Shown one piece after another: positions 4,768 to 42,822 of a stretch of 64,000 bases of DNA. The notes beneath the pieces were generated by a model that worked only from the letters and a program-made list of their open reading frames with translations, did no database searches and was not told the origin of the DNA. Position 1 is the stretch's first letter, and every line of letters begins with the position of its first letter. Made by a program: the position numbers and the translations under genes. This DNA is from Planctomycetota bacterium. Lineage in GTDB: Bacteria > Planctomycetota > UBA8108 > UBA1146. The DNA is taken from contig JAPKAM010000004.1 of the NCBI GenBank assembly GCA_028825265.1, positions 333 to 64,332 on the forward strand, given 5' to 3'.

Positions 4768-4827
4768 CCCCTCGGGGCCGCCTTCCTCTGGTCTTTCCCC
4801 TGCAGTGCCTTCTGCGGGAGGAATGAT

Positions 4828-26025: not shown

Positions 26026-28352
26026 CGAAGTGGTTCAGTTGCCTGCTCTTCATCGCCTTTCTACTGTTCCCACGGGCAGTTCTTGAAGGTCAAACGGCCA
26101 TCGATCTAGAGATCCGTGCCTACGATGTCATCGAATTGAATAATGGAAATCAGTTCGAGGGCAGGATCATCGCAGAGTTATCGAATTTGATTCAATTTGA
26201 AACTGCGGCGGGAAAAGTCACCTTCCCTCTTTCAGATGTCCGTAACATCTTCTACAGAAATCCTCCCGAAAAGGTCTACCAGACTCGGCTGCAGGATGGA
26301 TTTGATGAGTCTTCAGCTGCCGAGCAATTTGAAATCGGCAGATGGTGCCTGGATCCAGCAGTCGGACTGCTGGAGCAAGCCGTGAATCACCTGGAGATGG
26401 CCGTCCAACTCGATCCGACATCGGCGGCTCCTTACCAGCTGTTGATCCCCATCTACCAGCAAGACGATGCTCGCCAATTCCAGTCCACTGATCATGAAAT
26501 GACTGCCGATGTGGCGATGACGCAGACACTTCTGAAGGGTGTTCGTGCCAACATCGAGATCGAAGGTCTCTTCGAACTCACGGTCACCCAACTGATCCAG
26601 ATCGGCGAATCAGAAGCGGCCGTGTTGCTGTTGATGCGCCAGAGTGAAGGTGACGTCACGATTCCTTCCGTCGCGGCGGCGCTGAAAAAATTGGTGGTAC
26701 TTCTCGATGCACTGGGTCGTAGTGAAGAGTCGAGACAGGCCGCCAGTCGACTTCGCAAAGGCGGTGGTGGAAGCGATGTCGAGGTCTTGCAGCGAGAAAT
26801 TCGATGGGCGGTCCTCGACTATGCCGCTGGATCGCTGGATTCACGCGATGCGATCGAACAGTTGTTCGATGATCTGATCGCCGCGGGTGGTGCGGATGGG
26901 CAGAGTTATCTCTATCGTGGTACGGCTCGGTTACTCGACGATCAACTAGTACTGGCGCAAGACGACTTCAAGAAGGCTTTTCGGGCCGGAAGTGTCGATG
27001 CCATTGCTGCCACCACTTTTGCCCTCTCCTTCGCCAGGATGGGCGATTTCGACAAAGCACTAGGACTACTGGGGCCCGCTTCCGAGGGGGACCAGGTCAA
27101 CGTGGATTGGCGACTCGTGGAAGCCTACGTACTGGAATCTCAGGGAGAATCCAGGGCTGCGGTAGATCTCTATCAGGAGGCGACCGAGCAGGCTGAGGCC
27201 ACCTGGCAATCACGCCTGTTAAGCATCGAAGCGAGGCGGAGGCTAGATCCGAACTGGGATCCGACTTCGGATGTTGAAAAGGTCATGCGACACGACGTGC
27301 TGTCCTCCGCTGCTTTTGCCGAATGCGCACTGGTGCTGGGAGACCATGCTCTTTCACGAGGAAAACAGGCGGAAGCCAGACGTTGGTTGGAATACGCCGT
27401 TGCCAGTGGGCTCGACGGTTCTGATGTGATGCTTCGCCTCGGTCTCGCACAACGCGGACCGGGTGGTGATCCGAAGAGAGCGCGAGATGCACTGACTCTG
27501 GTGACGATAGATCAGCCAAAGAACCCCGACGGTTGGAATGCTCTGGCGGAGTTCCTCCATTCCAATGGTGAACTCGAAGACGCTCGTTTAGCCCTGCGGA
27601 AGTCGCTGGACCTGTTCCCTGAAAAGATGCGAGATAACTGGGCGCCCGATGCGCCGGCTCCTTTGCGCTGGGCACTGCGCGCTCAGCGACGAATCAATCG
27701 GACCCTTTCAGAAGAGTACTGGTACGATGATTTTGATCGAGCAAATGACTCTTCACTACAGAATAACTGGCGTGAAGAAGAAGCCTTTGGTGTCTCCGTT
27801 TCTCTCAAGGATGGCATGGCGATCATCGAAGGAGTCCAGAAACATCAACCGGACCGCTTGACCTCGATGAAACGTGAAATCCTGACTTCTCGTCTGACAG
27901 GATTTCGGTCGACACTTCGGTTATTGGCTGCTGGCACTGGCACGCGGATTGCATTTCGTGTGGAAGACCAATCGGGTGGTGGGCTGATCTTCTTCCGAGA
28001 TCCCGATGGTGTCCTTGGTTTCGCCCTTCTCGGGGGGAAAGAGATCAAGATGGTTCGCAGCGACGATGCCGAACAGGGGGAGGACTTTGGTTTGATTGAA
28101 ACCATCTGGTCGCCGGACGATCGTGCTCACCAGTTGGAAATCATTTTCACGCGGGAAGGCAAGGAGGGCGCCGAGTTGTGGTTTGACGGCATCCTTGTGG
28201 CGCGGGAAATTCCATATCGACCGGCCAGGAAGGCTGGCTTGACGGCTGGTTTTTCCGGTCAGGCTCCTCTCGATGAAAAATATCATCTGGCCATCGAGGA
28301 GTTCGAGGTGTTTCGCCGAAAGGCGGTCTCAATCAGGGAGCAGGAGTACTAG
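26022..28352 (+). CDS. Secreted TPR-repeat protein with C-terminal beta-rich domain
   Basis: Signal peptide (WFSCLLFIAFLLFPRAVLEG), multiple TPR-like helical repeats and a ~200-aa non-TPR C-terminal domain. Coupled within the operon. Confidence 0.5.
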   Translation: MTKWFSCLLFIAFLLFPRAVLEGQTAIDLEIRAYDVIELNNGNQFEGRIIAELSNLIQFETAAGKVTFPLSDVRNIFYRNPPEKVYQTRLQDGFDESSAAEQFEIGRWCLDPAVGLLEQAVNHLEMAVQLDPTSAAPYQLLIPIYQQDDARQFQSTDHEMTADVAMTQTLLKGVRANIEIEGLFELTVTQLIQIGESEAAVLLLMRQSEGDVTIPSVAAALKKLVVLLDALGRSEESRQAASRLRKGGGGSDVEVLQREIRWAVLDYAAGSLDSRDAIEQLFDDLIAAGGADGQSYLYRGTARLLDDQLVLAQDDFKKAFRAGSVDAIAATTFALSFARMGDFDKALGLLGPASEGDQVNVDWRLVEAYVLESQGESRAAVDLYQEATEQAEATWQSRLLSIEARRRLDPNWDPTSDVEKVMRHDVLSSAAFAECALVLGDHALSRGKQAEARRWLEYAVASGLDGSDVMLRLGLAQRGPGGDPKRARDALTLVTIDQPKNPDGWNALAEFLHSNGELEDARLALRKSLDLFPEKMRDNWAPDAPAPLRWALRAQRRINRTLSEEYWYDDFDRANDSSLQNNWREEEAFGVSVSLKDGMAIIEGVQKHQPDRLTSMKREILTSRLTGFRSTLRLLAAGTGTRIAFRVEDQSGGGLIFFRDPDGVLGFALLGGKEIKMVRSDDAEQGEDFGLIETIWSPDDRAHQLEIIFTREGKEGAELWFDGILVAREIPYRPARKAGLTAGFSGQAPLDEKYHLAIEEFEVFRRKAVSIREQEY

Positions 28353-28994
28353 ATGAACCCTTCACCACGAGCCGGATTCACCCTGGTCGAACTACTGGTG
28401 GTGATTGCCATCATCGGCGTTTTGGCTGGACTGGGTTCGAAGATGCTGAGCTTTGCCACCAAGAGCAGTGCCATCGGCCTGGCCGAACAGGAGATGCAAC
28501 GATTGGTGCTGGGCGTGGAAACCTATCAACTCGATTTCGGCGATTTCCCACCCAGTTCGATGGAGCAAGAGTACGAGATCTCCGGCAATGGTCTAGACGA
28601 GGGAAACGAGAGTTTGGTGGCCCATCTCGCCAGTCGCTCGAGAGGCCGGAGTTACTTCGAGTTCAAGGAGGAGTTTCTCGAGAATCTCGATGATGATCGT
28701 ATCGGTGATGCAGATCTCTATCAGCAGATGCGCTGGGTTTTCGGCGATGAACAACTGAGAGAATACGTAGATCCCTGGGGAGTTCCTTACGTCTACATTC
28801 ACAATAGAGATTACGGCATCGATTACTCTGTGACTCAAGAATCAGGCCCGATCAAGATCCACGCAGGGAATTCTCGTAAAACTGCGACCTATCATGAACC
28901 ACTTCGTTTCCAGATATGGTCAGCGGGGCCGGATGGTATTCACCAGATCGATGTCGATGATCCGGATGCCTCGGATGACGTGGCGCCATGGTGA
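28353..28994 (+). CDS. gspG: Major pseudopilin, GspG-like (type II secretion / type IV pilin-like)
   Basis: Class III signal RAG|FTLVELLVVIAIIGVLAGL with Glu+5, GspG 'DPWGVPYVY' motif, and C-terminal SAGPDG (cf. GspG GADG). 213 aa against a canonical ~145. Confidence 0.7.
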   Translation: MNPSPRAGFTLVELLVVIAIIGVLAGLGSKMLSFATKSSAIGLAEQEMQRLVLGVETYQLDFGDFPPSSMEQEYEISGNGLDEGNESLVAHLASRSRGRSYFEFKEEFLENLDDDRIGDADLYQQMRWVFGDEQLREYVDPWGVPYVYIHNRDYGIDYSVTQESGPIKIHAGNSRKTATYHEPLRFQIWSAGPDGIHQIDVDDPDASDDVAPW

Positions 28995-30376
28995 GAAGAA
29001 GTTTCGATTCGAATCACGGCGTGACCTTGATCGAGCTCCTGGTGGTGCTTTCGATCCTGTCGGTCATGCTCGGAATGTCGATGTCCGTTTTTCGGTCCTT
29101 CGGCGAGGCCCAGACGCTGGAGATCGCTTCCAGCAGCATCTCTACGACGGTCAGAGCTGCGCGGAACTGGTCGATCTCATCCGGGATGCAGAGCCGGATT
29201 CTGGTCGATCCAGAGCATCGTAAAGTGACCGCCTTCGGATTTCAATTGGCGGGTGCCTGGGGTTTCGAGGATTTTTACGGCCTTCCTGAAAAGCAGTTAT
29301 TGCCGCCGGGATCGGTGACCCTCGGTGCCTATCGCCAGCCAGCAGAACTGGTCGGCCAGGTGGAACCCTGTGCCGGATCGATCGGTCGAGGGGCGATGTT
29401 CGTCAACGATGGTGCCGCATTTCGTGCTCGTCGCCTGGCCAGTTACGAGGGTCGTAATGGGGTTTCCATCGAAGCGTGGGTTCATTTCTGGAAGCCGCCC
29501 TGGCGTCCAGAAGATGGAATTGAGCCGGATGGGGGCTTTTCCGATCCGCGGCGGGAGATGCGCATGGCCGTGCTTGGCATTCCCGATTCATTCGAGATGG
29601 GAATCCTCGGCGATGGCGCCGTTTACATGCAGATCGGTGATCCGCAGAGGGCCATCGATGGGCAATACATCCGCGCCCAGACGGAGGGATCTGCGGTCCT
29701 TGCGGATCGATGGGTACACCTGAGAGCCACTTTTGATTGTACCGAACTGATTCTCGAGGTGGACGGCGTCGAGCAGGCTTGGATTCCTGAGGGCTTCGAA
29801 ATGATCGAACAGTGGCCGCCATTACCCACTGCAATCCCTCACAGCGATTCCGATCTGTGGATTAGTCATCCCAATCGATTTTTCATGGGAGCCATCGATC
29901 AGGTGGTCCTGAGGGTGGCAACGACACCAGAGATCGTCGAATTGCCCATCGATATCGAACTGTTGGGTCCCACGACGCTGATTTATCTCGACAGCCGAGG
30001 GGCTCTCGATCCGTTGCTGCACAATTTCCCTGTGGTGATTCACGTGGCGGAGGTCGGAGATTTTTCTGAAATTGAAGCCGCAGATGGAACTGCAGTTGCA
30101 AAAGAAGGATTCAGGGATCGCATCGAACGAGAGCGACAGGAACAGGCGGCTAGAGACGGTGAGATCGTCCAGGCATTTGGCGATCCCATCTCGGATCTGA
30201 TGAAGCATCTGGAAGGCTGGGAAACCGATCCAGATGCTCTCATCGAAGAGGAAGAAGAGAAGAACCCGGTGCCATTGACTCCAGGAATGCACTACGGAAT
30301 TGGCGATGTGGATGGAACATCAGTGCTTCGTCTTCATAACATCGTGATTGATATGACGGGAGCTATTCGTGGTTAA
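28988..30376 (+). CDS. Large pseudopilin-like protein (GspH-like position)
   Basis: Prepilin N-terminus NHG|VTLIELLVVLSIL with Glu+5. 462 aa. Confidence 0.5.
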   Translation: MVRRSFDSNHGVTLIELLVVLSILSVMLGMSMSVFRSFGEAQTLEIASSSISTTVRAARNWSISSGMQSRILVDPEHRKVTAFGFQLAGAWGFEDFYGLPEKQLLPPGSVTLGAYRQPAELVGQVEPCAGSIGRGAMFVNDGAAFRARRLASYEGRNGVSIEAWVHFWKPPWRPEDGIEPDGGFSDPRREMRMAVLGIPDSFEMGILGDGAVYMQIGDPQRAIDGQYIRAQTEGSAVLADRWVHLRATFDCTELILEVDGVEQAWIPEGFEMIEQWPPLPTAIPHSDSDLWISHPNRFFMGAIDQVVLRVATTPEIVELPIDIELLGPTTLIYLDSRGALDPLLHNFPVVIHVAEVGDFSEIEAADGTAVAKEGFRDRIERERQEQAARDGEIVQAFGDPISDLMKHLEGWETDPDALIEEEEEKNPVPLTPGMHYGIGDVDGTSVLRLHNIVIDMTGAIRG

Positions 30377-33300
30377 GCCAGAGAGAAATCTTGAACGAGG
30401 AATGGCCTTGTTGATGGTCATCCTGGTGCTCTCCGCGCTGGCAGCGATCGGTACTCCGTTTGTGATTTCGATGAAACTTCAAGAAAGAGGTGCCGCTCGG
30501 GCAATCGCACAGCAGCACGCACAACTCGCTGCGCAAAGTGCCAGAGGACATGCTCTTAGCCGATTGTTCGATACTCATCATAGTCGAGAACGAGATCGCT
30601 GGCGCCCCGGAGTGGAGGCTCCTGACTTGGTCGATGGACTGGACGAATTGAAAGTCGACTTTCCTGGTGTGATCACAACTGTACCTGTGGTCGGTACACC
30701 TCCGGAGGATTTTCAAATTCGAGGTAATTCTCAGGTGATCCTCGATGCTCGCGTGACTGACGAGCAGGGCAAGATCAACATCAACTCTGCGATGCCTAAT
30801 CTCATGGGCAACTTGTTGGCCGGGAGTCATCTGTCCGAAGCGATCAGCTATGAAACGGATCTGGGAGAGTTGCCACTCGACGACACCTCTTCTTTTCCCG
30901 CGGATGATGATCCGGAGACGATTGATGGTGTCGTCGTGATCCTCAATCCGATCTTCTTCACTGTCGAGGCGATTTCATACACTGGAAAAACTGAAACAGC
31001 GTTGACCGGGATCTTCAGGGGACAATACCTGTCGGGGACATGGGAGCACCAGAAAGGTTGGCCAGTCTTCGACCTTCGTGGGTTGAAGGTCTTCTTGCAT
31101 CGGCTCGCCAATCTCTCTGACGGTGAAATCGCGACCTTCCGTACTCCGATTGGAATCCGTCAGATTGCCGATTGGTCGGTGGTTCCCTATTTCCTCAAGA
31201 CCCTGGCAGTGGTGGGGCTCAATTTCAAGAACATGGCGGAATGGGGTCTGACCACAGAGATGCTGGTGCGTGCGGGGATCGATCCATCCTTGCTCCAGGG
31301 GGATACAGAACAAGTGGATGAAGCGGAATATCGTAAAGCACGAAAGATGTTTCTCGATAATAACATCCCCAAGGATGTGGTCGATCTGGTCGAGTCGATT
31401 CGTGGAAAAGCTGCGGTGATCGAAGCGGCTGAGGTGGTCGCGGGCTTTGGTCTGACCAAGGCCAGGGGGAATGCATTCAAGGGTGTCTATCTGACCTTCA
31501 TCGCACCGGAGCTGAAGAAGATCAAGAAGAGGGGCAAGAGTTATTTCCCCAGCGCCATCCTCGCTTACCAGGAAATTTTTGATCTCCCCGGAATGGAAAC
31601 CTTTTCAGCTTTTGAGTTTGAGCAAATCCGCGACCTGATCACGACCACCTCGACCCAGCCGAGGGCATGGTCGCAGGAACAGATGGTCGAGGGAGAGATC
31701 ACCGATAGTGCGCTACTCGGAGTCCCGCAGATGCGTCTGCCACGGTATGACTTCTTCAATCCTGGAACTGTGGTGAGAATCCGCAGCATCGATGATCCCT
31801 CGAAGGTTGAATATGGACTCGCTGCGGGGGCTTTCCCGACTCCTCGGGGAGGATTCCGGGGATTGGGAGCTGGCTCCATCTTTCAGGGCGGTGTGATTCT
31901 CAAGGAACCCTTGAAATATCAGTGGGGCGAGCGCGAGGCGATGGTTAGTGCCGCACTTCGGCATCCGGTCAACATCAATACCGCCCCTCGTAGGGTCCTC
32001 GAAGCGGTCTTGACCGGGCTCTCCACCGATCGGTTCGAGGCACGATTCAACGGAGTGACCGTCGAAGAAGCGCGTGGATTGACCGACCTCCTGATGGAAG
32101 CGATGCCGATTTCTGGTTTCGCCGCTTTGCGGGAGGTGGTGGAAGCCGCTCAGATGAGTGGCGTCCTCGATGGCGGTGATTCCGAAGCGATTCTCATTAA
32201 CGCACTGAACCCAAATCAGCCACGACTCTCCATCTCCACCACGGGATTTTGTTACGCCACTTCTGAGATCTACACCGTTGAATCGACCGGAGTGGCCAGG
32301 AGCCCGGTGGGTACTCCTCAAGCGACGGTTCGCCTTCGTGAGGTGATCGAGGTTGCACCTCCGGATCCGCTTTCGCTAAGGCTGGAAACGCAGGAGGACT
32401 GGTCTTCCATCTTTCTCACACGTAATTCGAGCGGTGGGATGTTCTCTCGATTCAACACGACTTTCGTCCCCGGTCGGGCGTCGAACCTGGTGATCAGTGG
32501 TCCGATCCCTCTCAACCGTCGCAAGTTCACCGGGCCTTCTCTCGATGAAGGAACTCTTCGTGGAGCGACCATCTCGTATGATCGAGATTCAGGGAACTAC
32601 GGTTTCGGCTCGGTCGGCTTGCTGGATGTCGAGCACTTTAGCGAAACCATCGAGGGGTATGAACTGGAAGACGGTTCCTGGAAGCGATCGATTCTCCTCC
32701 AGCAAGAAACCGAACCGACTCGGGGCCGAGGACGCAGGGGGGCGGCGCCTGATCCCCAAGTTTTGGATCAAAATTCGACTGAAGACGCCCTTTCGACCAT
32801 CCCTGCGATGATTGATTTCTGGTACCGCCCGCGCTGGGGCTCGCGAAGTGGAAACCGAATTATCTTCGATACCGTGGGCCCGACCCTGGATCGATATCGT
32901 GATCGTGTGCGATTGTTCTTCTCCGGGGATACACAGGAACTGGTGCTGCAGGTCTTTGATGAGACCGGATCTGCAGTGGCGTGGGATACCAATGTTCTAC
33001 CTGCGGCAGAGGTTCGGCACTCGGTCACGACCATCAACTTTGCAGATGACACCTGGTATCACATCTCTGCGGGATGGAGATCGACGAGGCCTGGAGATCT
33101 GGTGCTGATGATCGATCGTCGGCCGGTCGGTCGTCAGTCCTGGTTGTCACGCCTCAATGGTGCGCTTTCATTCTCGGGCAATCGTGTTTCCATCGTCGAT
33201 GGTGACATGGCGACCCGGTTCCCCCCGATGGGCACCTTGCTGGTGGGTTCTGAAGCGATCGATTACTCGGGTCGGGAAGGGGCTGCCTTCATCGTCAGGT

Positions 33301-36092
33301 CACCAGGGCTCAACGGCTCTCCTCCGATCGGGCGCGGAGTTCGTGGGACGGTTCGGTCGAGCCATGCTGCGGGCACTCCTGTAAGGCTTCTGGGGTATTC
33401 ATTGCCCATCGCCAATTCTGATCCACGACGCGGACTGGCCGATTCCTCCAGTGACATCATCATCGGTCCTGGTGGGGCATCTCTGGAGATTGAGATCACT
33501 CCGACGATGAGGGTTGCGGCCTTCAACACCGGTACAGGTGCAGTGGAATTGACGCCTGCGACATTTTCACGTGCCTCGACCCAGATCCCCTTCTCTGCCG
33601 GAAGTCCCGTGACCAGTACCCTGGAATTGGAGCCGTTTGCGGCCACTTCGTCTTCCTTGCTGGTTCAGACCAACGGAAGCCATCCTCTGGAACTGGGTTT
33701 TCCGCCGCGAGGATATCTTCATATCCAACAGTGGACCCAGCAGGGGATCGAAAGGGCGCAATTGGTGGCGTCTGAATTCGCCAAGTACTCCTCCATCACT
33801 CCGGGACCGATCCCTGGCCTCTATCGCTTCACCGCCATGGGTAGAGCGCTGCTAAACTCGACGGCGACCCAGGGTGTCATCACGGCCACCTCCACAACCA
33901 CCCTGCAGGTCAGGGGTGTTTCTATCGAGTCGAATGCGACCGATTTGAATCTGAGTTATGCACCTTCCGGTGTGATTCAGATCGATTACATGCCTGGCTC
34001 GCAGAGTCTCGGGCTGCTCCAGGATGCCGAATGGATTCGATACACGCAGATCGCCGAGGGCAAGTTCTTCATCTGTGATCCGGATCAGGTCGAGGCCTTT
34101 CGTGGCTTCACCGGGGACCAGTACATCAACACCAGTGATCCATTCCGTCGTAATCGGCCACTGTGGGATATGAATGGCATCGTGCGCCATGCTGCCGGAC
34201 AGGAGATCACTCAGGTGGTCCGCGCGGTCGGGGCCTCTGCTGGATTTGGTGACGAAGTGATCCTCGGGGATGGCTATGGCGATCCGACTACCCGGCTGCG
34301 AGAAGAAACGCCGCTGAGAGTTCGCAAGGTCCGCGAAACCGACAGTGGCACCTATGTCAGCTTTTACTGGCCTCCTGAGGGAATCTATCGGCCGGGACAG
34401 GATCCACGAATCCGTCGTTTCCCCAGTGGTGGTTTACCTTCTTCATCCAACGGGGAGATTCGCTTCGGGTCATCGATGATCAGCGGCGATGGGATCGATG
34501 CACCGGGGACCCTGGACGAGGTTCGTTTTAGTCGCCTCGACTCGAGTGACGTCGACACCTATGCATTTCCCGCCGCTTCCAATGGTGGGTTCCGGACGAT
34601 GCCGATCCAGGCTTCGCCGGGATTGCCGTCGGGGGTTCGAACCGAGGTGCTGCGTAGCGGATACACGGAACAGGATTCTGAACAGCCGGGCGGAGTGCTC
34701 GACAAGATTCACTTGTTGGCTCGTTCAAAACTCACCGCTTCCGCTGTGACGCCACCGGAAGGTGCCACTGATTTCACTGCAGGATCGGTTCGATCCTTTT
34801 CAGTCGGCGATCCTCGAGGATTTGGGCTGGGAAAACGAGAAGGATTGTTTCAGGTCGATGATGAGGTGATGCATTACACCTTTGACCCCGGCTCGGTCGA
34901 GGCCTCGGTGGTGATCCAGTTGGAGCAGGATCTTCCGCGCGATCCTTACCTGGATGAAGATGCGCTCGGTGAAGGGGAGGTGGTTCCCTATGACCCCAAC
35001 CGAGACCTGAGAGTGGAAGTGGTCAACATTGTCCGGGTCAACAACACCGCCAACCTACCTCCCAACGGCGGATTCCTTGAGATGATCTCCGGACCCACCA
35101 ACGAAGTGCTCTACTACCAGCAAGCTTCGAACGGGGTGCTACGCAATGTGCTGCGCGGCCAGCTCGGATCATCGGTGGGTGGGTATGTTTATCAGTGGTC
35201 CTACACCGACGCCGCCGGTGCTGTTCAAGTTGTGACCAATACCCACCAATTGCGGTTGATCCCCAGTCGTACCATCGATGTGATGACCCGAGGAATGCTC
35301 ACCACGGAACGTGCTAGCAATGAGTTGGGACACGAACCTCTGGTTCCGCTCCCCAGTATCCCAGTGGCACGGCTCGCCGGGCAGGTCGCTGAATCGGGTT
35401 TGACGCTGGAGGTGATGGGACTTCCCGGAAACGAAGGTGAGAATCGCCAGCTGCTGGGATTCCCTTCCGGCGAGGGATATCTGCTGGTGGATGACGGAAT
35501 CGTCTCGACACCCGACGAGATCATCGCTCACACCGGAGCGCAGGGCGGTAGCTTTGGACTGTTCCGTGACGATCGCACTGGCAAGGGAATTTTCCGCGGT
35601 CGCTTCGGCACCGATTTTAAGGTCCATGCCGCGGGTACCCCTGTCATCGAACTTCTGGCTCGACATCACGATCGTTATCAGCCGCTGGTGGAATCGAAGG
35701 ATCTCCAGTATCTCGAGCGGGCCTGGACGATGCCAGGAACGATGTGGGACCGCATCAGTTGGGCTGTGGAACAGTCTCGAAACCGTTCCACCGCCGGAAC
35801 CGTACGAATACTCGCCCGTTTTGATGGCATCCCTGGTTGGGATTCCACTCCGACCAATGCACCGGGTGGGCTCTATCTGTTCGACGATCCAGATGACGCG
35901 AATCGACTGGGGAGATTTGGTGATGCGATTGAAATTCGGATTCACTATCGTCACCGAAAAGGAGCCTTTGGCCTGACGCGTCAGTCGGGGATCTGGAATG
36001 ACGAATGGAAACATCTTCCCATCTTGAAAAGCGTAGCGATCGAGCACCGCAAGGAGTGGCGTATCTTGCATCACGAGGAATACCCGTATTGA
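30369..36092 (+). CDS. Giant GspK-like minor pseudopilin (1907 aa)
   Basis: GTG start. GspK-type N-terminus RG|MALLMVILVLSALAAIG lacking Glu+5, as in GspK. GspK family motif HPVNINTAPRRVLEAVLTGLS, followed by >1500 aa of extra sequence. Confidence 0.5.
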   Translation: MVKPERNLERGMALLMVILVLSALAAIGTPFVISMKLQERGAARAIAQQHAQLAAQSARGHALSRLFDTHHSRERDRWRPGVEAPDLVDGLDELKVDFPGVITTVPVVGTPPEDFQIRGNSQVILDARVTDEQGKININSAMPNLMGNLLAGSHLSEAISYETDLGELPLDDTSSFPADDDPETIDGVVVILNPIFFTVEAISYTGKTETALTGIFRGQYLSGTWEHQKGWPVFDLRGLKVFLHRLANLSDGEIATFRTPIGIRQIADWSVVPYFLKTLAVVGLNFKNMAEWGLTTEMLVRAGIDPSLLQGDTEQVDEAEYRKARKMFLDNNIPKDVVDLVESIRGKAAVIEAAEVVAGFGLTKARGNAFKGVYLTFIAPELKKIKKRGKSYFPSAILAYQEIFDLPGMETFSAFEFEQIRDLITTTSTQPRAWSQEQMVEGEITDSALLGVPQMRLPRYDFFNPGTVVRIRSIDDPSKVEYGLAAGAFPTPRGGFRGLGAGSIFQGGVILKEPLKYQWGEREAMVSAALRHPVNINTAPRRVLEAVLTGLSTDRFEARFNGVTVEEARGLTDLLMEAMPISGFAALREVVEAAQMSGVLDGGDSEAILINALNPNQPRLSISTTGFCYATSEIYTVESTGVARSPVGTPQATVRLREVIEVAPPDPLSLRLETQEDWSSIFLTRNSSGGMFSRFNTTFVPGRASNLVISGPIPLNRRKFTGPSLDEGTLRGATISYDRDSGNYGFGSVGLLDVEHFSETIEGYELEDGSWKRSILLQQETEPTRGRGRRGAAPDPQVLDQNSTEDALSTIPAMIDFWYRPRWGSRSGNRIIFDTVGPTLDRYRDRVRLFFSGDTQELVLQVFDETGSAVAWDTNVLPAAEVRHSVTTINFADDTWYHISAGWRSTRPGDLVLMIDRRPVGRQSWLSRLNGALSFSGNRVSIVDGDMATRFPPMGTLLVGSEAIDYSGREGAAFIVRSPGLNGSPPIGRGVRGTVRSSHAAGTPVRLLGYSLPIANSDPRRGLADSSSDIIIGPGGASLEIEITPTMRVAAFNTGTGAVELTPATFSRASTQIPFSAGSPVTSTLELEPFAATSSSLLVQTNGSHPLELGFPPRGYLHIQQWTQQGIERAQLVASEFAKYSSITPGPIPGLYRFTAMGRALLNSTATQGVITATSTTTLQVRGVSIESNATDLNLSYAPSGVIQIDYMPGSQSLGLLQDAEWIRYTQIAEGKFFICDPDQVEAFRGFTGDQYINTSDPFRRNRPLWDMNGIVRHAAGQEITQVVRAVGASAGFGDEVILGDGYGDPTTRLREETPLRVRKVRETDSGTYVSFYWPPEGIYRPGQDPRIRRFPSGGLPSSSNGEIRFGSSMISGDGIDAPGTLDEVRFSRLDSSDVDTYAFPAASNGGFRTMPIQASPGLPSGVRTEVLRSGYTEQDSEQPGGVLDKIHLLARSKLTASAVTPPEGATDFTAGSVRSFSVGDPRGFGLGKREGLFQVDDEVMHYTFDPGSVEASVVIQLEQDLPRDPYLDEDALGEGEVVPYDPNRDLRVEVVNIVRVNNTANLPPNGGFLEMISGPTNEVLYYQQASNGVLRNVLRGQLGSSVGGYVYQWSYTDAAGAVQVVTNTHQLRLIPSRTIDVMTRGMLTTERASNELGHEPLVPLPSIPVARLAGQVAESGLTLEVMGLPGNEGENRQLLGFPSGEGYLLVDDGIVSTPDEIIAHTGAQGGSFGLFRDDRTGKGIFRGRFGTDFKVHAAGTPVIELLARHHDRYQPLVESKDLQYLERAWTMPGTMWDRISWAVEQSRNRSTAGTVRILARFDGIPGWDSTPTNAPGGLYLFDDPDDANRLGRFGDAIEIRIHYRHRKGAFGLTRQSGIWNDEWKHLPILKSVAIEHRKEWRILHHEEYPY

Positions 36093-37174
36093 TGAACAAA
36101 GAACAAGGAATGACTCTGATCGAGATTCTCGTATCGCTGGGTATCTTCGTGATGCTCGGGAGTGGCCTGGTTGTGTTTCTGAAAGATGGAATTTCCACCT
36201 GGCAAGTCGGCGAATCGAGACGTGAAGCGATCGAACGATCGGAGGCGATTCTGCAGCCGCTTTGTGCCGATCTGAGATCTCTCTTCTCGCAACCCGATCC
36301 TGGACCTGGTGGTGGACTCGTCGATGTACTGCTGCTGTGTGATCGTGACGCTCTGGGTCGATCCCGATTGCGCATGGTCAGTGTGCTTGACGAGGAGGTT
36401 CGCAATCCGATCACCCGGATTGCTGGATCGCTGACGGGCGGTCTTGCCGACATCGATTACCGAAATGATGCGATGGAAGCTCGGCTGGGAATTCTTCGTG
36501 CCCCTGGCGGCCTGTGCGAGGTGAGCTATTCGATGGGACCCGCGGCAGGTTCCGAAGTGTTGTGGAAGGGGTTCAAGAGCCCCATCGGGGGCGAAGGCAC
36601 CCTTTTCAATCAGGCCAACTTGGCGCCCGATGTCGATGGCACTCCGATGCGGAGTCGCCCCATCGCCGATGGTGTGCTCTACATCGAATGGTCCTTCTGG
36701 GGTGGAGATCGTCGTCGCTGGGTCGATGGCAAAATCCAGCCCCCGATCACCCGCTGGGATTCGACTCGCGGTATCTTGCCGATGGATCGAAAAACTGGAA
36801 TTCGCTGGGATCCTGACAGTCGAGATGATCCCTCCGATGATGTGTTCCCCGACACCGTCGAGGTGCTGCTGGTTCTGAGACCTGCCCGGTCGATGGCTCT
36901 AGCAAGACTGATTTCGGATATCGACGATAGAACCGCTGAGATTCGGGTTGATTCCACCGCGCAGTATCCAGTGGGTCCTGATCATTACATCCGCATCGAC
37001 TCCGAATGGATTCGCGTGGGGCGCATCACACGAGGTGCTTTTCTCGATTGCGAAAGAGGAATGCGAGGTTCGGTAGCGCAGCAACACGCACGTCTGCGGC
37101 CGGTGGTCCACGGCTCTGAATTCCGGAAAACGGTTCGGATTCCAGGATCCCGGGATCCGGGGGGGCAGCGATGA
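36092..37174 (+). CDS. Pseudopilin-like protein (GspJ-like position)
   Basis: QG|MTLIEILVSLGIFVMLGS with Glu+5. TGATG overlap with the giant gene; the ORF track starts it earlier, at 36005. Confidence 0.55.
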   Translation: MNKEQGMTLIEILVSLGIFVMLGSGLVVFLKDGISTWQVGESRREAIERSEAILQPLCADLRSLFSQPDPGPGGGLVDVLLLCDRDALGRSRLRMVSVLDEEVRNPITRIAGSLTGGLADIDYRNDAMEARLGILRAPGGLCEVSYSMGPAAGSEVLWKGFKSPIGGEGTLFNQANLAPDVDGTPMRSRPIADGVLYIEWSFWGGDRRRWVDGKIQPPITRWDSTRGILPMDRKTGIRWDPDSRDDPSDDVFPDTVEVLLVLRPARSMALARLISDIDDRTAEIRVDSTAQYPVGPDHYIRIDSEWIRVGRITRGAFLDCERGMRGSVAQQHARLRPVVHGSEFRKTVRIPGSRDPGGQR

Positions 37175-37596
37175 AAGTGCAGCACAAAGAATCAGGATTC
37201 ACCTTGCTCGAGGTGGTCGTGGCTCTCGGAATCCTGACGGTCGGAGTCAGTGCTGCCATCTCCCTGTTCGCCGCAGGTACCGCTTCGCATCGGCGTGCGG
37301 TCGATCGGATCCGGGCCATCGAGGTCTCGGAAGTGGTCCTCTCCGCCCTCGAAGGGACGATTCGCGACGGAGCAACGGTGACCGATTTGATCCAGAATCC
37401 ACCGTGGCAACCATTGATCTCTCGGTGGCCTGGAATCTCAGTGGAGGTGCGTTATGGCACCGTTCCCAAGGTAGACTTCACCGATGAGCTGCTGGTCGAG
37501 ATTCATGTGCAGTGGATCTCTCGCGGGCTCGATAGTGAGGAAGTGTTTCGACAGATCGTTCCGAGGATGAGAAGTATCCGATTGGATGCGCCCTGA
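37171..37596 (+). CDS. Small pseudopilin (GspI-like)
   Basis: SG|FTLLEVVVALGILTVGVSAAISLF with Glu+5. 141 aa. ATGA overlap. Confidence 0.6.
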   Translation: MKVQHKESGFTLLEVVVALGILTVGVSAAISLFAAGTASHRRAVDRIRAIEVSEVVLSALEGTIRDGATVTDLIQNPPWQPLISRWPGISVEVRYGTVPKVDFTDELLVEIHVQWISRGLDSEEVFRQIVPRMRSIRLDAP

Positions 37597-38730: not shown

Positions 38731-38825
38731 GACCCCAGTGTCCGGCCGTATCTGGCTCAATTCAACTGTTGGTCCTTGAACCGGGGTAAAAGGTTTTGTA
38801 TCTAGGGCCGTGACAGGATTGATCC

Positions 38826-38995
38826 GGGGCAACCTGGATCGGAAGTGTGGTGAGATTCCACCGCGGTGCCGCCGCTGTAACCGGGGACAACCCCTGCACT
38901 CCAGGTTTGAGCCTGGAAAGCCACTACGGGATTCCGTGGCAAGGCGCAGGGAGAGGATGATCCGGGAGCCAGAAGACCTCCTGTCAGGCGAATCG
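38826..38995 (+). promoter_or_regulatory. Probable cobalamin (AdoCbl) riboswitch; boundaries approximate
   Basis: GGUGAGAUUCCACCGCGGUGCCGCCGCUGUAACCGGGGA matches the cobalamin aptamer core (GGUGnnAAnUCCnnnGCGGUCCCGCCACUGUnAnCGGnGA). Downstream GAGCCAGAAGACCUCC matches the B12-box (btuB AAGCCCGAAGACCUGCC). It is followed by a hairpin, GGCCCG-UUUGUG-CGGGUC. Confidence 0.6.
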
Positions 38996-39095
38996 GGCCC
39001 GTTTGTGCGGGTCTGATTCCAACCTGGATGGCTCCGGTGTACGCACAGTGCGTGACTCCGGCATCCAGCACTCCGAGCAGAGAGGTGAGGTCCCG

Positions 39096-40463
39096 TTGCT
39101 TTCAGCGCTTTTTTCACTCCTATCTGTGGATTCAACCACTACACCTTTGCGAATCTTTGTGCTGATGGGTTGTTGGGTGCCGGTCCTCGGTTTTTGCGGG
39201 GATCCGATCGCCGAGGTTTCATTTTCGAATCCTTCTTCGATCGTCGATTCTCACCCTTACTCGATTGTGATCGATGACCTTCACCAGTTTGGCTATGCCT
39301 CGATCTGTGGGGATGTGGCTCCGATGGGTGAGCCGGTCGAGGATCACAGCGGCCATCAGGTGGTCGAGTTTGATGCTCGCTCTCTCAAGGTGCTGAGAAC
39401 TTTCGATGTCGGCTACTACCCGACCGATATGTTGATCTCTGGCTCCGATCTGTGGGTCAGTTGCTCCACCGTCAGCAGTCTGTTCAGGGTCGATCTGGTC
39501 AGCGGCGAGGTCTCTTCGGTACCGTTCACGGACAGTTCTGGATCCGACATCGGATATCCATCGGGACTGGCCCTCGGCTGGAACGGGGAAATCATCGTCT
39601 CTTCCAATGGCGGTAATTTTGACGGATCCGATGAAAACATCGTGATTCTGAATCCGCTGACCGAGGAAGTTATTCAGCACATCGAAGTCGCAGGAGGCAT
39701 CTCTACCATGGCGGCACTCGAAGATGGTTCCCTGCTGGTTCCGGTCGGTTTCCCCGGCAATGACTTCACGGCGGCGCCGCTGTTGCAGTGGATCAACCCG
39801 ATCGATGGTCAACTGCTCGATCAACTCATCATCGATGTCGAGACTTCAGATTTTCCTGCACCGAGTGACCTGGAGATCCTGGATGACCAAAGTGCGCTGC
39901 TGACCATCTTCGGAGGAAGTGCGGTGGTTTACCGCATCGACCTCATCAACCGGACCCTGATGATGGAATACCCGATGGATTCGGTCGATCCGGTTCAGAG
40001 TGCCGTGGTCCAGGGGGATTCCGACACCTTCCTCGTGGCTGAATATTTCGCAGGAACCGTGTCACGATATCAGCTCGATAGCGGTGAACTGGTCGAAACT
40101 CTCACCGGGGGAGATCTTCCCAATCGGATCTGTGTCTCGGGAGGGCGGATTTTTACCACCCAACAGGGTGTCGAGTCGATCACCGTTCACGGCGGGGTCG
40201 GGGCCTTTGTCCGCGCGGATCTGAATCTGGACGGACAGGTGGATCTGGCCGATCCGATCCGATTACTCAATTACTTGTTTCTTGGGACATCGCTGGATTG
40301 CCTCGATTCCGCCGACAGCAACGACGATGGGGCGCTGGATCTCTCCGATGTGATCCACATCTTATCTTTCCTCTTTTCACAGGGGCCGTCTCCGCTATAC
40401 CCTTTCCCAGTGGCCGGTGGAGACCTGAGCGATGACAACCTGGATTGCGAGACCACCGGATGA
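39096..40463 (+). CDS. Beta-propeller (YVTN/NHL-like repeat) protein with C-terminal dockerin-like Ca-binding domain
   Basis: Repeated blade-like units (VGYYPTDMLISGSDLWVSCS...). C-terminal DLNLDGQVDLADPIRLLNYLF...DSNDDGALDLSDVIHILSFLF (dockerin type-I-like repeats). Start uncertain: TTG at 39096 follows AGGTGAGG; ATG at 39165. The ORF-track ATG at 39003 lies inside the riboswitch. Confidence 0.5.
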   Translation: MLSALFSLLSVDSTTTPLRIFVLMGCWVPVLGFCGDPIAEVSFSNPSSIVDSHPYSIVIDDLHQFGYASICGDVAPMGEPVEDHSGHQVVEFDARSLKVLRTFDVGYYPTDMLISGSDLWVSCSTVSSLFRVDLVSGEVSSVPFTDSSGSDIGYPSGLALGWNGEIIVSSNGGNFDGSDENIVILNPLTEEVIQHIEVAGGISTMAALEDGSLLVPVGFPGNDFTAAPLLQWINPIDGQLLDQLIIDVETSDFPAPSDLEILDDQSALLTIFGGSAVVYRIDLINRTLMMEYPMDSVDPVQSAVVQGDSDTFLVAEYFAGTVSRYQLDSGELVETLTGGDLPNRICVSGGRIFTTQQGVESITVHGGVGAFVRADLNLDGQVDLADPIRLLNYLFLGTSLDCLDSADSNDDGALDLSDVIHILSFLFSQGPSPLYPFPVAGGDLSDDNLDCETTG

Positions 40464-40504
40464 AACTTACAACCTGCCCATCCCCGTTCGAGAGAGGAAA
40501 CTTC

Positions 40505-41776
40505 ATGTCCTTCCCCAGCAAGATTCTGCTCTGTTGTGCGATCGTTTTTTCGACTTGGATCGGTTTTCCGACAGGTCTTCTCGGTCAGGGGGCCTGGTAC
40601 GGTGACCAGCAGAATCTTTGGGTCCACGGGGAGGCGGGTTCGACACCCATAGTGAATCTCTCCACCGATCTGCGAGCCATCGCTCGAACCGCCGATGGCG
40701 GCGGTTGGATCGCCATCGATGGCAGCCAGCAGGTGATTCATGTCGATGCCAGTGGATCCATCGTCGAAGTGGTCGATACCGTGGTGGGCGTACAGTCGCT
40801 GGCCATCGATGCCAGCGGCCTGGTGTGGGGAACCCGACCGGGACTCGATGATTTGATCGTGATCGAATCGGGTTCGGGGATCATCGCCACTCATTCGGTC
40901 GGCTCGGTCCCCTATGGTCTCTCGATCGATTCCGATGGACGGATCTGGGTCAGTTGCTCCTATGCGAACCAGATCGATCTTCTCGATGGATCCGGGTCGC
41001 TGCTTGCGAGTTTCCCGGTGGGTTTCTTCCCGACCGGAATCAGTGCGGCTCACGGGGGAGGTGTCTGGGTTGCCGAGAAAGGCGGCTTGAAGCGATTGTC
41101 TTCTACCGGAGAGGTGCTGTGGAGCGAGACGGTCGGCACCTTTCCCATCGCCGTCACCACCGACCTGCAGGGGCGAGCTTGGTTTTGCTGTCAAACCAGC
41201 GATCAGGTAGTGGTGGTGGGCGATCTGGGTGTCGAATCGATCATCGATGTGCCCGCTCGTCCATTGGGCATCAGTGCCAACGGAGATGGGACCGTTACGG
41301 TGGTTTGTCGGGATGGATCGGCACTGGTGAGGATCTCCTCTCAGAGTGAGATCCTTTCGTTGGAAATGGTTGCGAATCCCATCGGTCACGGCGATCTGAC
41401 TGGCCTCCAGCGAGCTTTGCTGGCGGATCCACTCGGAGATCAGGATTTCGACGGGGTGGCCAATCTCGAAGAGGCGCAGTTCGGGTTCAATCCCCTCGAT
41501 GCGGCTTCGGTTCCGGCACTCTTTGTCCGAGGCGATACCAACCGCGATGGAATGGTCGATCTCGCGGACGCGATTCATGAATTGTTGGTGCTGTTTGGGG
41601 TGGCCACGAGCCCCTGCCTGGAAGCCTTGGATGTGGATGACGATGCAAGGTTGACCCTGGCAGATCCGATCCGGATCCTTGATTTTGTCTTTTCTGCGGG
41701 ACCTCCTCCTGGGGCTCCATTCCCCGAATACGGTCTGGATCCATCTCCTATGCAGGGTTTTCCTTGCTCCCCCTGA
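40505..41776 (+). CDS. Paralogous beta-propeller protein with C-terminal dockerin-like domain
   Basis: Signal peptide MSFPSKILLCCAIVFSTWIGFPTGLLGQ. YVTN-like repeats (VGSVPYGLSIDSDGRIWVSCS..). C-terminal RGDTNRDGMVDLADAIHELLVLF...LDVDDDARLTLADPIRILDFVF. Confidence 0.55.
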   Translation: MSFPSKILLCCAIVFSTWIGFPTGLLGQGAWYGDQQNLWVHGEAGSTPIVNLSTDLRAIARTADGGGWIAIDGSQQVIHVDASGSIVEVVDTVVGVQSLAIDASGLVWGTRPGLDDLIVIESGSGIIATHSVGSVPYGLSIDSDGRIWVSCSYANQIDLLDGSGSLLASFPVGFFPTGISAAHGGGVWVAEKGGLKRLSSTGEVLWSETVGTFPIAVTTDLQGRAWFCCQTSDQVVVVGDLGVESIIDVPARPLGISANGDGTVTVVCRDGSALVRISSQSEILSLEMVANPIGHGDLTGLQRALLADPLGDQDFDGVANLEEAQFGFNPLDAASVPALFVRGDTNRDGMVDLADAIHELLVLFGVATSPCLEALDVDDDARLTLADPIRILDFVFSAGPPPGAPFPEYGLDPSPMQGFPCSP

Positions 41777-42030: not shown

Positions 42031-42822
42031 TTGAACAATAACAAGGCGGAGCCGGAGCACCAGATCGCCGTATTTGTCGACCTCGACAACATCGCCATCG
42101 GTGTCAAGGAAGCCAAAATTGCCAAACTGGATATTTCCAAGATTCTCGACCGACTGGTCGAGAAGGGCAAAATCACAGTCAAGCGAGCTTACGCTGACTG
42201 GTCCAACTGGACTCATTACAAGCGACCCTTTCATGAGTGTGCGATCGAACTGATCGACATTCCCCAGCGCAGGATGGGTGGCAAGAATAGCGCTGATATC
42301 AAGATGGTGGTCGATGCCCTGGAACTGTCTTACTCGAAACCGCACGTCGATACCTTCGTGTTGATCTCGGGTGATAGTGACTTCTCGCCACTGGTCTCTC
42401 AGTTACGAGAGAACAACAAGAAGATCATCGGGCTCGGGGTCAAGCATTCATCCAGTAACCTGCTCATCGATAACTGCGATGAGTTCATCTTTTACGAAGA
42501 TCTGGTTCGGACTCGCAAGAAGAGAATCCGCAAGACGACCAAGAAGGCCTCTCCCAAGGTCAGCAAAGATCAAGAGGCCGCTTTCTCACTGTTGATCAGT
42601 TCGATCGCTGCCCTGCAACGAGAGAACTACGAAATTATCTGGGCGTCGATGGTCAAGCAAACAATGAAGCGCAAGCAGCCGACCTTTAGCGAGGAATATC
42701 ACGGCTACACCCACTTTTCCAAGTTGCTTGTCGATGCCGAAAAGCATCAATTGATCAGTGTCCACAAGGACCAGCGATCGGGCACCTACATCATCGACGA
42801 GTTGCTCGAAGACGAGATCTAG
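42031..42822 (+). CDS. NYN-domain (PIN-like RNase) protein with C-terminal OST-HTH/LOTUS domain
   Basis: IAVFVDLDNIAIG...RAYADWSNW...FVLISGDSDFSPL (NYN). C-terminal LLISSIAALQRENYEIIWASMV...HGYTHFSKLL (OST-HTH-like). Confidence 0.65.
   Translation: MNNNKAEPEHQIAVFVDLDNIAIGVKEAKIAKLDISKILDRLVEKGKITVKRAYADWSNWTHYKRPFHECAIELIDIPQRRMGGKNSADIKMVVDALELSYSKPHVDTFVLISGDSDFSPLVSQLRENNKKIIGLGVKHSSSNLLIDNCDEFIFYEDLVRTRKKRIRKTTKKASPKVSKDQEAAFSLLISSIAALQRENYEIIWASMVKQTMKRKQPTFSEEYHGYTHFSKLLVDAEKHQLISVHKDQRSGTYIIDELLEDEI

What the first reader, a model, noticed from the sequence alone, without database searches (positions are those of the whole stretch)
39096..41776. Two paralogous beta-propeller proteins with dockerin-like C-termini apparently under B12-riboswitch control
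Cobalamin riboswitches usually gate B12 uptake (btuB/btuFCD), B12-independent isozymes, or cobalamin biosynthesis. Here the first downstream genes are two secreted YVTN/NHL-type beta-propeller proteins. Each ends in a tandem Ca-binding dockerin-like module (D.N.DG.VDL.D...L..LF twice). In Bacteroides the surface B12-capture protein BtuG is a beta-propeller. These could be analogous corrinoid-capture or corrinoid-processing proteins anchored via dockerin-cohesin-like contacts in an organism lacking classical TonB-dependent BtuB. That would be an undescribed uptake route.
Basis: inference. Interest (0 to 1): 0.7.

Follow-up and report, generated by a model that had tools for sequence, protein, structure and literature searches.

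The report
B12-switched secreted propeller proteins, Planctomycetota
A vitamin-B12-sensing RNA switch sits directly in front of two secreted beta-propeller genes in an uncultured marine planctomycete, and this linkage holds in every related genome and in most distant relatives checked, so they are strong but untested candidates for a new family of B12-scavenging proteins outside the Bacteroidota.

Summary
A full-length cobalamin riboswitch (38798-38998, 70.8 bits) lies 98 nt upstream of two same-strand genes. Both encode signal-peptide-bearing seven-bladed beta-propellers with dockerin-like C-termini.

"Paralogous" is overstated. Only the ~70-aa C-terminal module is clearly shared (43% identity). 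The propellers are remote relatives (hhalign 92%, 20% identity).

The linkage is not chance. All 26 species-level marine Planctomycetota genomes encoding gene 1 carry the riboswitch directly upstream. Gene 2 follows in 25 (one contig ends). A covarying hairpin with an invariant CGNGCA loop abuts the ribosome-binding site, and the loop is complementary to aptamer loop L5. This is the classic B12-OFF translational design.

A profile search found distant gene-1 relatives (16-27% identity to gene 1). Eleven of 12 looked up also follow a cobalamin riboswitch. Several sit next to BtuB-like or BtuF-like genes, and two have lipoprotein signals. One soil subfamily lacks the riboswitch (0 of 20).

Fold searches are uninformative, because both are generic propellers. 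Gene 2 lacks the Vgb lyase catalytic histidines.

Best reading: B12-repressed extracellular corrinoid-capture proteins analogous to Bacteroides BtuG/BtuK. Binding is untested. I found no published description.

The parts
38798..38998 (+). Cobalamin riboswitch aptamer (RF00174). Loop L5 is GG-UGCCG-CC.
   Evidence: 70.8 bits, full-length model. The L5 sequence is identical in all but one of 27 marine-clade copies; for L012 the search pattern did not match, so it was not assessed.
39071..39082 (+). Regulatory hairpin P13: stem CUC/GAG, loop CGAGCA at 39074-39079. The loop can pair with L5 UGCCG through 5 base pairs if the third loop base is bulged.
   Evidence: Present in all 27 marine-clade copies. 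Stem covariation: 90.5% of cells paired, 22 cells changed on both sides against 8.2 in shuffles, 0 of 500 shuffles as high. Loop/L5 covariation with distant riboswitches. The kissing-loop pairing itself is inferred.
39080..39090 (+). Shine-Dalgarno-like purine tract GAGAGGTGAGG. It overlaps the 3' strand of P13 and lies 5 nt before the TTG start.
   Evidence: Read directly from the sequence. The start codon agrees with the public 455-aa call P0030.
39096..40463 (+). Gene 1 (prop1): signal peptide (about residues 1-35), seven-bladed YVTN/YncE-type propeller (about 39-366), dockerin-like module. Hallmark loops are SNGGxFDGSxEN, PVGFPxNDFTAxP and DVxTSDFPxPSD.
   Evidence: No Pfam family reaches its cut-off.
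40206..40415 (+). Dockerin-like C-terminal module of gene 1 (residues about 371-440): two Ca-loop-plus-helix repeats, with a conserved Cys402 and a conserved C-terminal Cys451.
   Evidence: helices 385-396, 403-406, 416-428.
40505..41776 (+). Gene 2 (prop2): signal peptide, seven-bladed NHL/Vgb-type propeller (about residues 30-290), linker, dockerin-like module.
   Evidence: Pfam PF24684 at 56.8 bits, above the cut-off of 50..
41522..41704 (+). Dockerin-like C-terminal module of gene 2 (residues about 340-400).

Best explanation
The two genes form a B12-repressed operon.

Regulation (inferred): when cobalamin is plentiful, the aptamer binds it. The downstream hairpin P13 docks on aptamer loop L5 as a kissing loop. 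The ribosome-binding site of gene 1 is then occluded and translation falls. When B12 is scarce, both proteins are made.

Export and location (shown by sequence and models, location inferred): both proteins are exported through Sec signal peptides. Their dockerin-like, Ca-binding C-terminal modules probably hold them at the cell surface.

Function (inferred, about even odds): gene 1 belongs to a wider family of extracytoplasmic seven-bladed propellers in the cobalamin regulon of Planctomycetota, plus at least one Acidobacteriota genome. It most likely binds corrinoids on one face of the propeller and passes them to an envelope transporter, as BtuG and BtuK1 do in Bacteroides. Gene 2 is specific to this marine clade and is probably an accessory partner. 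It could be a second binder or a non-binding scaffold, as with BtuK2.

Shown: the riboswitch, its conservation, the RBS-adjacent covarying hairpin, the secretion signals, the folds and the gene contexts.
Inferred: the direction of regulation, surface anchoring, and corrinoid binding and hand-off.
For: (1) Riboswitch at 70.8 bits, on the same strand, 98 nt upstream, with nothing in between.

(2) 26 of 26 species-level genomes have the riboswitch directly upstream, at gene-1 identities of 37-81%. 25 of 26 have gene 2 next; the remaining contig ends.

(3) The P13 hairpin abuts or overlaps the SD in all copies. Its stem covaries. Its loop CGNGCA is invariant except for the one base that would be bulged. 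L5 and L13 covary between clades: UGCCG/CGnGCA against ACCCG/CGAGGU or CGGGU.

(4) The distant riboswitches are followed by what look like intrinsic terminators, which is also an OFF design.

(5) Profile search: 11 of 12 distant single-domain relatives that were looked up follow a cobalamin riboswitch.

(6) Transport context in relatives:
- L038: riboswitch, propeller, riboswitch, TonB-B12-like receptor (212 bits, the best-scoring TBDT family), then a BtuF-type binding protein.
- L067: a BtuF-type gene 68 nt downstream of the propeller.
- L032: the orthologous binding protein is divergent.

(7) P0135 and P0199 have lipoprotein-like signals.

(8) Precedent: BtuG and BtuK1 are riboswitch-controlled seven-bladed propellers that bind B12 on one propeller face. 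BtuK1 and BtuK2 are a tandem pair in which only one binds (PMC10404256, PMC12751083, PMC13616437).

(9) Gene 2 lacks the Vgb catalytic histidines. His228 aligns with Leu, and the family has no invariant His.
Against: - No binding data exist.
- Fold searches cannot distinguish these proteins from any seven-bladed propeller.
- The weak profile match of the gene-1 family to BtuG (E about 0.005) aligns different blades, so it reflects repeat-level similarity only.
- No B12 transport, biosynthesis or B12-dependent gene lies in the 64-kb window or within 8 kb in the 26 marine loci.
- A related soil subfamily (P0087-like) has no riboswitch in 0 of 20 loci with enough upstream sequence. The fold family as a whole is therefore not B12-dedicated.
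- The OFF direction is inferred from architecture, not measured.
- Co-regulation of gene 2 rests only on the 41-nt gap and conserved order.
Confidence: 0.5

Rival explanations
1. The propellers are extracellular enzymes that act on corrinoids or their carriers. They might release B12 from binding proteins or detritus, or remodel or cleave corrinoid analogues. They would not be passive binders.
For: Gene 2 passes the Pfam cut-off of the Vgb lyase family. Its closest solved relatives by sequence include Vgb lyase (1e-18). Many propellers of this type are lactonases or lyases. The conserved acidic loops in gene 1 could bind a metal.
Against: The Vgb catalytic histidines are not conserved: His228 aligns with Leu, and the family has no invariant His. 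Gene 1 matches no enzyme family. The known riboswitch-controlled propellers (BtuG, BtuK1) are binders.
Confidence: 0.15
2. Cobalamin serves as an environmental cue, for example for the proximity of producers or a nutrient-rich patch. The propellers would be surface adhesion or interaction proteins with no role in B12 uptake.
For: The marine loci contain no transport genes. The dockerin-like module is a general tag on many secreted proteins of these bacteria. The related soil subfamily is not riboswitch-linked.
Against: Independent lineages place riboswitch-linked relatives beside BtuB-like and BtuF-like genes. To my knowledge, riboswitches rarely control functions unrelated to their ligand.
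Confidence: 0.1
3. The proteins take part in acquiring something other than complete corrinoids, needed when B12 is scarce. Candidates are cobalt or a precursor such as cobinamide or a lower ligand, to feed salvage or synthesis.
For: Cobalamin riboswitches also control cobalt transporters and salvage genes (general knowledge, Rodionov-type regulon surveys). The two Ca-type loops and acidic motifs show affinity for metals.
Against: No cobalt-transporter or cob/cbi genes lie nearby. The contexts in relatives are BtuB/BtuF-type. BtuG itself binds cobinamide as well as cobalamin (PMC10404256), so this rival partly merges with the main explanation.
Confidence: 0.1
4. The riboswitch is a relic or acts on something else, and the propeller genes are B12-independent.
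For: No expression data exist.
Against: The riboswitch is conserved in 26 of 26 genomes. The RBS-adjacent hairpin covaries and its loop is invariant. The same linkage recurs in distant lineages with different expression platforms.
Confidence: 0.02

Closest known systems
BtuG (Bacteroides thetaiotaomicron BT1954 and paralogues; PDB 3DSM, 8BMX)
   Same: Extracytoplasmic seven-bladed YVTN/YncE-type propeller. The gene is under a cobalamin riboswitch and is expressed when B12 is scarce. A riboswitch-linked relative in L038 lies next to a BtuB-like receptor, as btuG does.
   Different: There is no usable sequence homology: the profile E is about 0.005 and the alignment is out of register. Structurally it is no closer than generic propellers. 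The window proteins have Sec-type signals and a C-terminal dockerin-like module instead of an N-terminal lipid anchor. No btuB is adjacent in the marine clade. BtuG was reported as exclusive to Bacteroidetes (PMC6143338). B12 binding is untested here.
BtuK1/BtuK2 (B. thetaiotaomicron BT1486/BT1487)
   Same: Two tandem propeller genes are the first genes after a cobalamin riboswitch. Both are seven-bladed propellers plus an extra small domain. In that pair only one member binds B12, which is a plausible model for gene 1 and gene 2 here (PMC12751083, PMC13616437).
   Different: BtuK proteins are lipoproteins with an N-terminal PKD domain, and the two are similar to each other. Here the extra domain is C-terminal and dockerin-like, and the two propellers are only remotely related. 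No sequence comparison with BtuK was possible.
Virginiamycin B lyase (Vgb; PDB 2Z2N) / Pfam PF24684
   Different: The catalytic and metal-binding histidines are absent: His228 aligns with Leu, and the family has no conserved His. The protein is secreted, dockerin-tagged and riboswitch-controlled. Gene 1 is not in this family.
Type I dockerin (cellulosomal)
   Same: Two tandem 12-residue Ca-binding loops, each followed by a helix, at the extreme C-terminus of secreted proteins. Weak profile matches to solved dockerins.
   Different: Below the Pfam cut-off for gene 1, with no Dockerin_1 hit at E <= 0.1 for gene 2. It carries an extra conserved cysteine pair and a proline-rich tail. No cohesin partner is known or was sought. 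It occurs on many unrelated planctomycete secreted proteins.

Membership tests
Cobalamin riboswitch (RF00174) | Score above the curated Rfam gathering threshold over the full aptamer model | tested here: met
   70.8 bits against 31.5, model positions 1-189. 64-81 bits in all 26 related loci.
Cobalamin riboswitch (RF00174) | Expression platform: a P13 hairpin whose loop pairs with L5 and which controls the RBS or a terminator | tested here: met
   Covarying hairpin next to the SD. Loop/L5 complementarity, with covariation between clades. The ligand response itself was not measured.
BtuG family | Seven-bladed beta-propeller | tested here: met
BtuG family | Detectable sequence homology to BtuG2 | tested here: not met
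BtuG family | N-terminal lipoprotein signal (surface lipoprotein) | tested here: not met
   The window proteins and their orthologues have AxA/Q-type Sec signals. Only the distant relatives P0135 and P0199 have a lipobox-like LAAC/IAGC. Judged by eye; no signal-peptide predictor was available.
BtuG family | Genetic linkage to btuB | tested here: not met
   No TonB-dependent receptor in the window or within 8 kb in the 26 marine loci. Linkage is met only in a distant relative, L038.
BtuG family | High-affinity corrinoid binding in the central cavity of the propeller | not testable with these tools
   Needs a binding assay or a ligand-aware structural comparison. Model coordinates could not be analysed here.
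Vgb lyase family (PF24684), for gene 2 | Pfam score above the gathering cut-off | tested here: met
   56.8 bits against 50.
Vgb lyase family (PF24684), for gene 2 | Catalytic/Mg-binding His228, Glu268, His270 and Glu284. H270A is the inactive mutant in PDB 2Z2P. The residue roles are taken from the literature, from memory. | tested here: not met
   His228 aligns with the Leu of the conserved RPLGIS motif. The 22-member family has no invariant or near-invariant His. The last Vgb blade (268-284) does not align.
Type I dockerin (PF00404) | Two Ca-binding loop-helix repeats; Pfam score above the cut-off; a cohesin partner | tested here: inconclusive
   Loops and helices are present. Pfam gives 13.3 bits against 22.9 for gene 1 and no hit at E <= 0.1 for gene 2. 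Profile E against solved dockerins is 1e-3 to 5e-2. No cohesin partner was searched for.

The most novel reading that the evidence does not exclude
Gene 1 founds a previously unrecognised, Planctomycetota-wide family of cobalamin-riboswitch-controlled extracytoplasmic propellers, with members in Acidobacteriota. These would be high-affinity corrinoid receptors that arose independently of BtuG and BtuK. The family has been fitted with at least four different anchoring solutions: a dockerin-like module, a lipid anchor, a helical tail, and a C-terminal beta domain. In oligotrophic marine lineages it would work with a second propeller as a surface B12-harvesting pair.
Probability: 0.45. Interest if true: 0.8.

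Novelty: new variant of a known kind. Interest (0 to 1): 0.7.

Why it matters
B12 is a scarce, growth-limiting vitamin in the sea. How abundant uncultured heterotrophs such as marine Planctomycetota obtain it is largely unknown.

Surface B12-capturing propellers (BtuG, BtuK) have been described only in gut Bacteroidota, and BtuG was reported as exclusive to that phylum.

A separate protein family shows the same regulatory signature in another phylum. It is currently labelled 'hypothetical' or 'YncE family' and has no Pfam model. If it binds corrinoids, three things follow:
- Extracellular corrinoid capture by propellers would be a convergent, widespread strategy.
- Metagenomic surveys would gain a new marker for B12 scavenging.
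- There would be a set of probably very tight B12 binders to characterise.

The finding is directly testable with two recombinant proteins and a pink-band assay.

Tried and rejected
- Sequence link to BtuG. It is weak and out of register, so I rejected it as evidence of homology.
- Vgb lyase activity for gene 2. Rejected, because the catalytic histidines are missing.
- B12-related neighbours in the window. Pfam scans of 30 further window ORFs, in addition to the four nearest the riboswitch, found none. tblastn with TBDT, BtuF-like and HEAT queries against the window and the 26 marine loci found nothing.
- Metagenome scan with the broad family alignment. The scan with the P0087-like subgroup returned 27 soil loci, none with an upstream riboswitch. 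This showed that the linkage is subfamily-specific rather than universal.
- Third homology search, with the broad alignment. It returned essentially the same marine clade.
- Sigma-70 promoter and terminator scans. They were no better than shuffles.
- A simple regular expression for the riboswitch core. It missed variant copies (L035, L066, L067), so I replaced it with a purpose-built covariance model.
- Literature searches for riboswitch-linked propellers in Planctomycetota found nothing.
Full report
**What is there.**

Rfam finds one cobalamin riboswitch in the window, at 38798-38998 on the + strand. It scores 70.8 bits against a gathering score of 31.5 and covers the full model. It occupies the divergent gap between a holA-like gene on the minus strand (Pfam DNA_pol3_delta) and two + strand genes.

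Gene 1 runs from a TTG at 39096 to 40463 (455 aa). A purine tract, GAGAGGTGAGG, precedes the start. The public annotation makes the same call: P0030, 'MAG: hypothetical protein OSB09_00950 [Planctomycetota bacterium]', is 100% identical over 100% of the length. Gene 2 runs from an ATG at 40505 to 41776 (423 aa), 41 nt after gene 1.

Family alignments show N-terminal signal peptides in both proteins, with cleavage-type sites just before the conserved mature N-termini.

AlphaFold models are confident, at pLDDT 88.6 and 82.5. Each shows a seven-bladed beta-propeller followed by a short helical module.

The C-terminal ~70 residues hold two DxNxDGxxDxxD loops, each followed by a helix. They are 43% identical between the two proteins (E 9e-13). 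They match solved dockerins only weakly. Pfam Dockerin_1 is below its cut-off for gene 1, and gene 2 has no hit at E <= 0.1.

The two propellers are only remote relatives: BLASTP E 0.001 over 77 aa, and hhalign 92% probability at 20% identity.

**Is the riboswitch-gene linkage real?**

A scan of one genome per species found 26 loci encoding a gene-1 relative at 37-81% identity. Most are labelled Planctomycetota/Planctomycetia MAGs. A few are titled only 'bacterium' or 'uncultured bacterium', and one is titled Bacillota. All 26 have an RF00174 hit (64-81 bits) directly upstream on the same strand. Gene 2 follows gene 1 in 25; the 26th contig ends.

The whole neighbourhood is syntenic: pseudopilin genes, holA, the riboswitch, gene 1, gene 2, an NYN-domain gene, a metallophosphatase, a tRNA and trkH. 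Synteny alone would therefore not prove function. The expression platform does show selection, in four ways:

- A small hairpin lies immediately before, or overlapping, the Shine-Dalgarno tract in all 27 copies.
- Its stem covaries. 90.5% of cells are paired. 22 cells have changes on both sides against 8.2 in shuffles, with 0 of 500 shuffles as high. Slid controls give 36-55% paired.
- Its six-base loop is CGNGCA in every copy. Aptamer loop L5 is UGCCG in 26 of the 27; the pattern did not match L012. These can form five pairs if N is bulged, and N is the only loop base that varies.
- In distant riboswitches of the same protein family, L5 is ACCCG and the first hairpin after P1 has CGAGGU or CGGGU in its loop. 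That gives two compensatory changes across the proposed loop-loop contact.

This is the L5-L13 kissing-loop design of known B12-OFF riboswitches, which I identify from general knowledge. In the window, P13 is 39071-39082, with its loop at 39074-39079. The direction of regulation (B12 represses) is inferred from this architecture, not measured.

**What are the proteins?**

Gene 1 reaches no Pfam or NCBIfam cut-off. Its orthologues are confined to these marine MAGs. Gene 2 passes the Pfam Vgb_lyase cut-off (56.8 against 50). By sequence it resembles Vgb lyase and PknD/NHL-type propellers.

The gene-1 family profile hits BtuG entries (8BMY, 8BMX, 3DSM) at E about 0.005. However, gene-1 residues 259-364 align with BtuG 81-189, which are different blades, so this is repeat-level similarity only.

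I confirmed the S. aureus Vgb sequence against PDB 2Z2N and aligned it to the gene-2 family profile. His228 falls on the Leu of the conserved RPLGIS motif, and the last Vgb blade does not align. The 22-member family has no invariant or near-invariant histidine. H270A is the inactive mutant deposited as 2Z2P. Gene 2 is therefore not a Vgb-type lyase.

**Evidence from distant relatives.**

I searched a profile of the gene-1 propeller alone (A3) against 1.84 billion representatives. It gave 675 hits at E < 1e-10. Most are large multi-repeat YVTN proteins. About twenty are single-domain proteins of 360-500 aa that match end to end, at E 1e-16 to 1e-41.

These single-domain proteins share signal peptides and several gene-1 motifs but carry different C-termini. 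One group has a helical tail. Another has a beta domain ending in VVVQP. A third has no extra domain. P0135 and P0199 have lipoprotein-like signals. Those with names come from Planctomycetota MAGs ('YncE family protein'), and one comes from an Acidobacteriota MAG.

I looked up the genomic context of twelve of them. Rfam found a cobalamin riboswitch directly upstream for eight:

- P0081.
- P0083, with a HEAT-repeat gene between the riboswitch and the propeller gene.
- P0090, with the same HEAT-repeat arrangement.
- P0107, which has two riboswitches in tandem.
- P0123.
- P0175.
- P0135.
- P0087.

A covariance model built from 22 of these riboswitches added three more. These are P0199 (120 bits), P0149 (54 bits, cut by the contig end) and P0110 (42 bits, a short variant that Rfam's threshold had not reported). 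Only P0080, on a 2-kb contig, has none. The total is 11 of 12.

The contexts point to uptake:

- In L038 the order is riboswitch, propeller, second riboswitch, TonB-dependent receptor, BtuF-type binding protein. The receptor's best NCBIfam match is TonB-B12 (212 bits).
- In L067 a Peripla_BP_2 gene follows the propeller gene by 68 nt. Its 58%-identical orthologue is divergent from the propeller gene in L032.

**Limits.**

A metagenome scan seeded with the P0087-like subgroup returned 27 mostly soil loci. None of the 20 with at least 400 nt of upstream sequence has a riboswitch. One of the 27, L048 (368 nt upstream), has a riboswitch-controlled receptor 3 kb downstream. The linkage therefore belongs to particular subfamilies, not to the whole fold family.

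In the marine clade no B12 transporter, biosynthesis gene or B12-dependent enzyme lies in the 64-kb window or within 8 kb of the locus. I could not survey whole genomes.

The dockerin-like module also ends many unrelated secreted proteins of these bacteria, including FG-GAP, peptidase and hydrolase architectures. It is a general tag, and no cohesin partner was sought.

**Comparison with what is known.**

In Bacteroides, BtuG is a riboswitch-controlled surface lipoprotein. It is a seven-bladed propeller that binds corrinoids in its central cavity and caps BtuB (PMC10404256). Its homologues were reported only in Bacteroidetes (PMC6143338).

BtuK1 and BtuK2 are tandem PKD-plus-propeller lipoproteins encoded first in a riboswitch operon. 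BtuK1 binds B12 at nM-pM affinity and BtuK2 does not (PMC12751083, PMC13616437).

The locus here works like these on paper. It differs in protein family, in anchoring (C-terminal dockerin-like module rather than a lipid) and in phylum. In the marine clade it is also not adjacent to a receptor gene.

Four literature searches found no description of riboswitch-linked propellers in Planctomycetota.

**Verdict.**

The functional reading is extracellular corrinoid capture by a new propeller family. It is the best available explanation, at roughly even odds, and it is cheaply testable. I rate it a new variant of a known kind, with interest 0.7.

Noticed in passing
L032 2790-2937 and 3123-3327 (same in L033): Two cobalamin riboswitches in tandem precede a gene-1-like propeller gene. 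One is a short variant lacking the peripheral extension and one is full-length. A BtuF-type binding-protein gene is divergent from them.
   Followed up: partly
L029 416-1258; L030 573-1328; L027 5661-7022 (-): In one subfamily of gene-1 relatives, a membrane-anchored HEAT-repeat protein lies between the riboswitch and the propeller gene, or convergent to it. It has a weak NblB/CpcF-like match; those are proteins that handle tetrapyrroles. It may be a second unknown B12-regulon component.
   Followed up: partly
L038 5419-9947: An Acidobacteriota locus with the order riboswitch, gene-1-like propeller, second riboswitch, TonB-B12-like receptor, BtuF-like binding protein. This is the clearest transport context found.
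   Followed up: yes
L039-L065 (soil metagenome loci): Close relatives of P0087 (46-68% identical) have no cobalamin riboswitch within 5 kb. In L048, however, a riboswitch (4585-4781) precedes a TonB-dependent receptor 3 kb downstream of the propeller gene.
   Followed up: partly
window 26022-37596: A cluster of genes with prepilin-type N-terminal methylation motifs lies just upstream of holA, and its pseudopilin gene and holA are syntenic in the related marine loci checked. It includes a 1907-aa protein and resembles a type II secretion or pseudopilus system. It could be the export route for the propellers, but this is speculation.
   Followed up: no
Proteins P0032 and P0048 (orthologues of gene 1): The public gene calls are over-extended at the 5' end and translate through the riboswitch (..RERTIRKPEDLL.. 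and MIREPEDLL..). This annotation artefact could hide the riboswitch from protein-centred pipelines.
   Followed up: yes
window 40206-40415 and 41522-41704; proteins P0061-P0075: The dockerin-like module has a conserved internal Cys, a C-terminal Cys and a PxxPxP tail. It ends many unrelated secreted proteins, mostly from unnamed metagenome sequences. This suggests a lineage-wide surface-anchoring or sorting signal with an unknown partner.
   Followed up: partly
window 42031-42822: An NYN-domain (PIN-like RNase) gene lies 255 nt downstream of gene 2 on the same strand. It is far more conserved (66-93% identity) than the propellers (37-81%). Whether it belongs to the riboswitch-controlled transcript is unknown.
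   Followed up: no
window 38999-39070: In the window and its closest relatives (L001-L004), about 75 nt containing two strong hairpins separate the aptamer from P13. In other clade members P13 follows the aptamer almost directly. The role of this insert is unknown.
   Followed up: no
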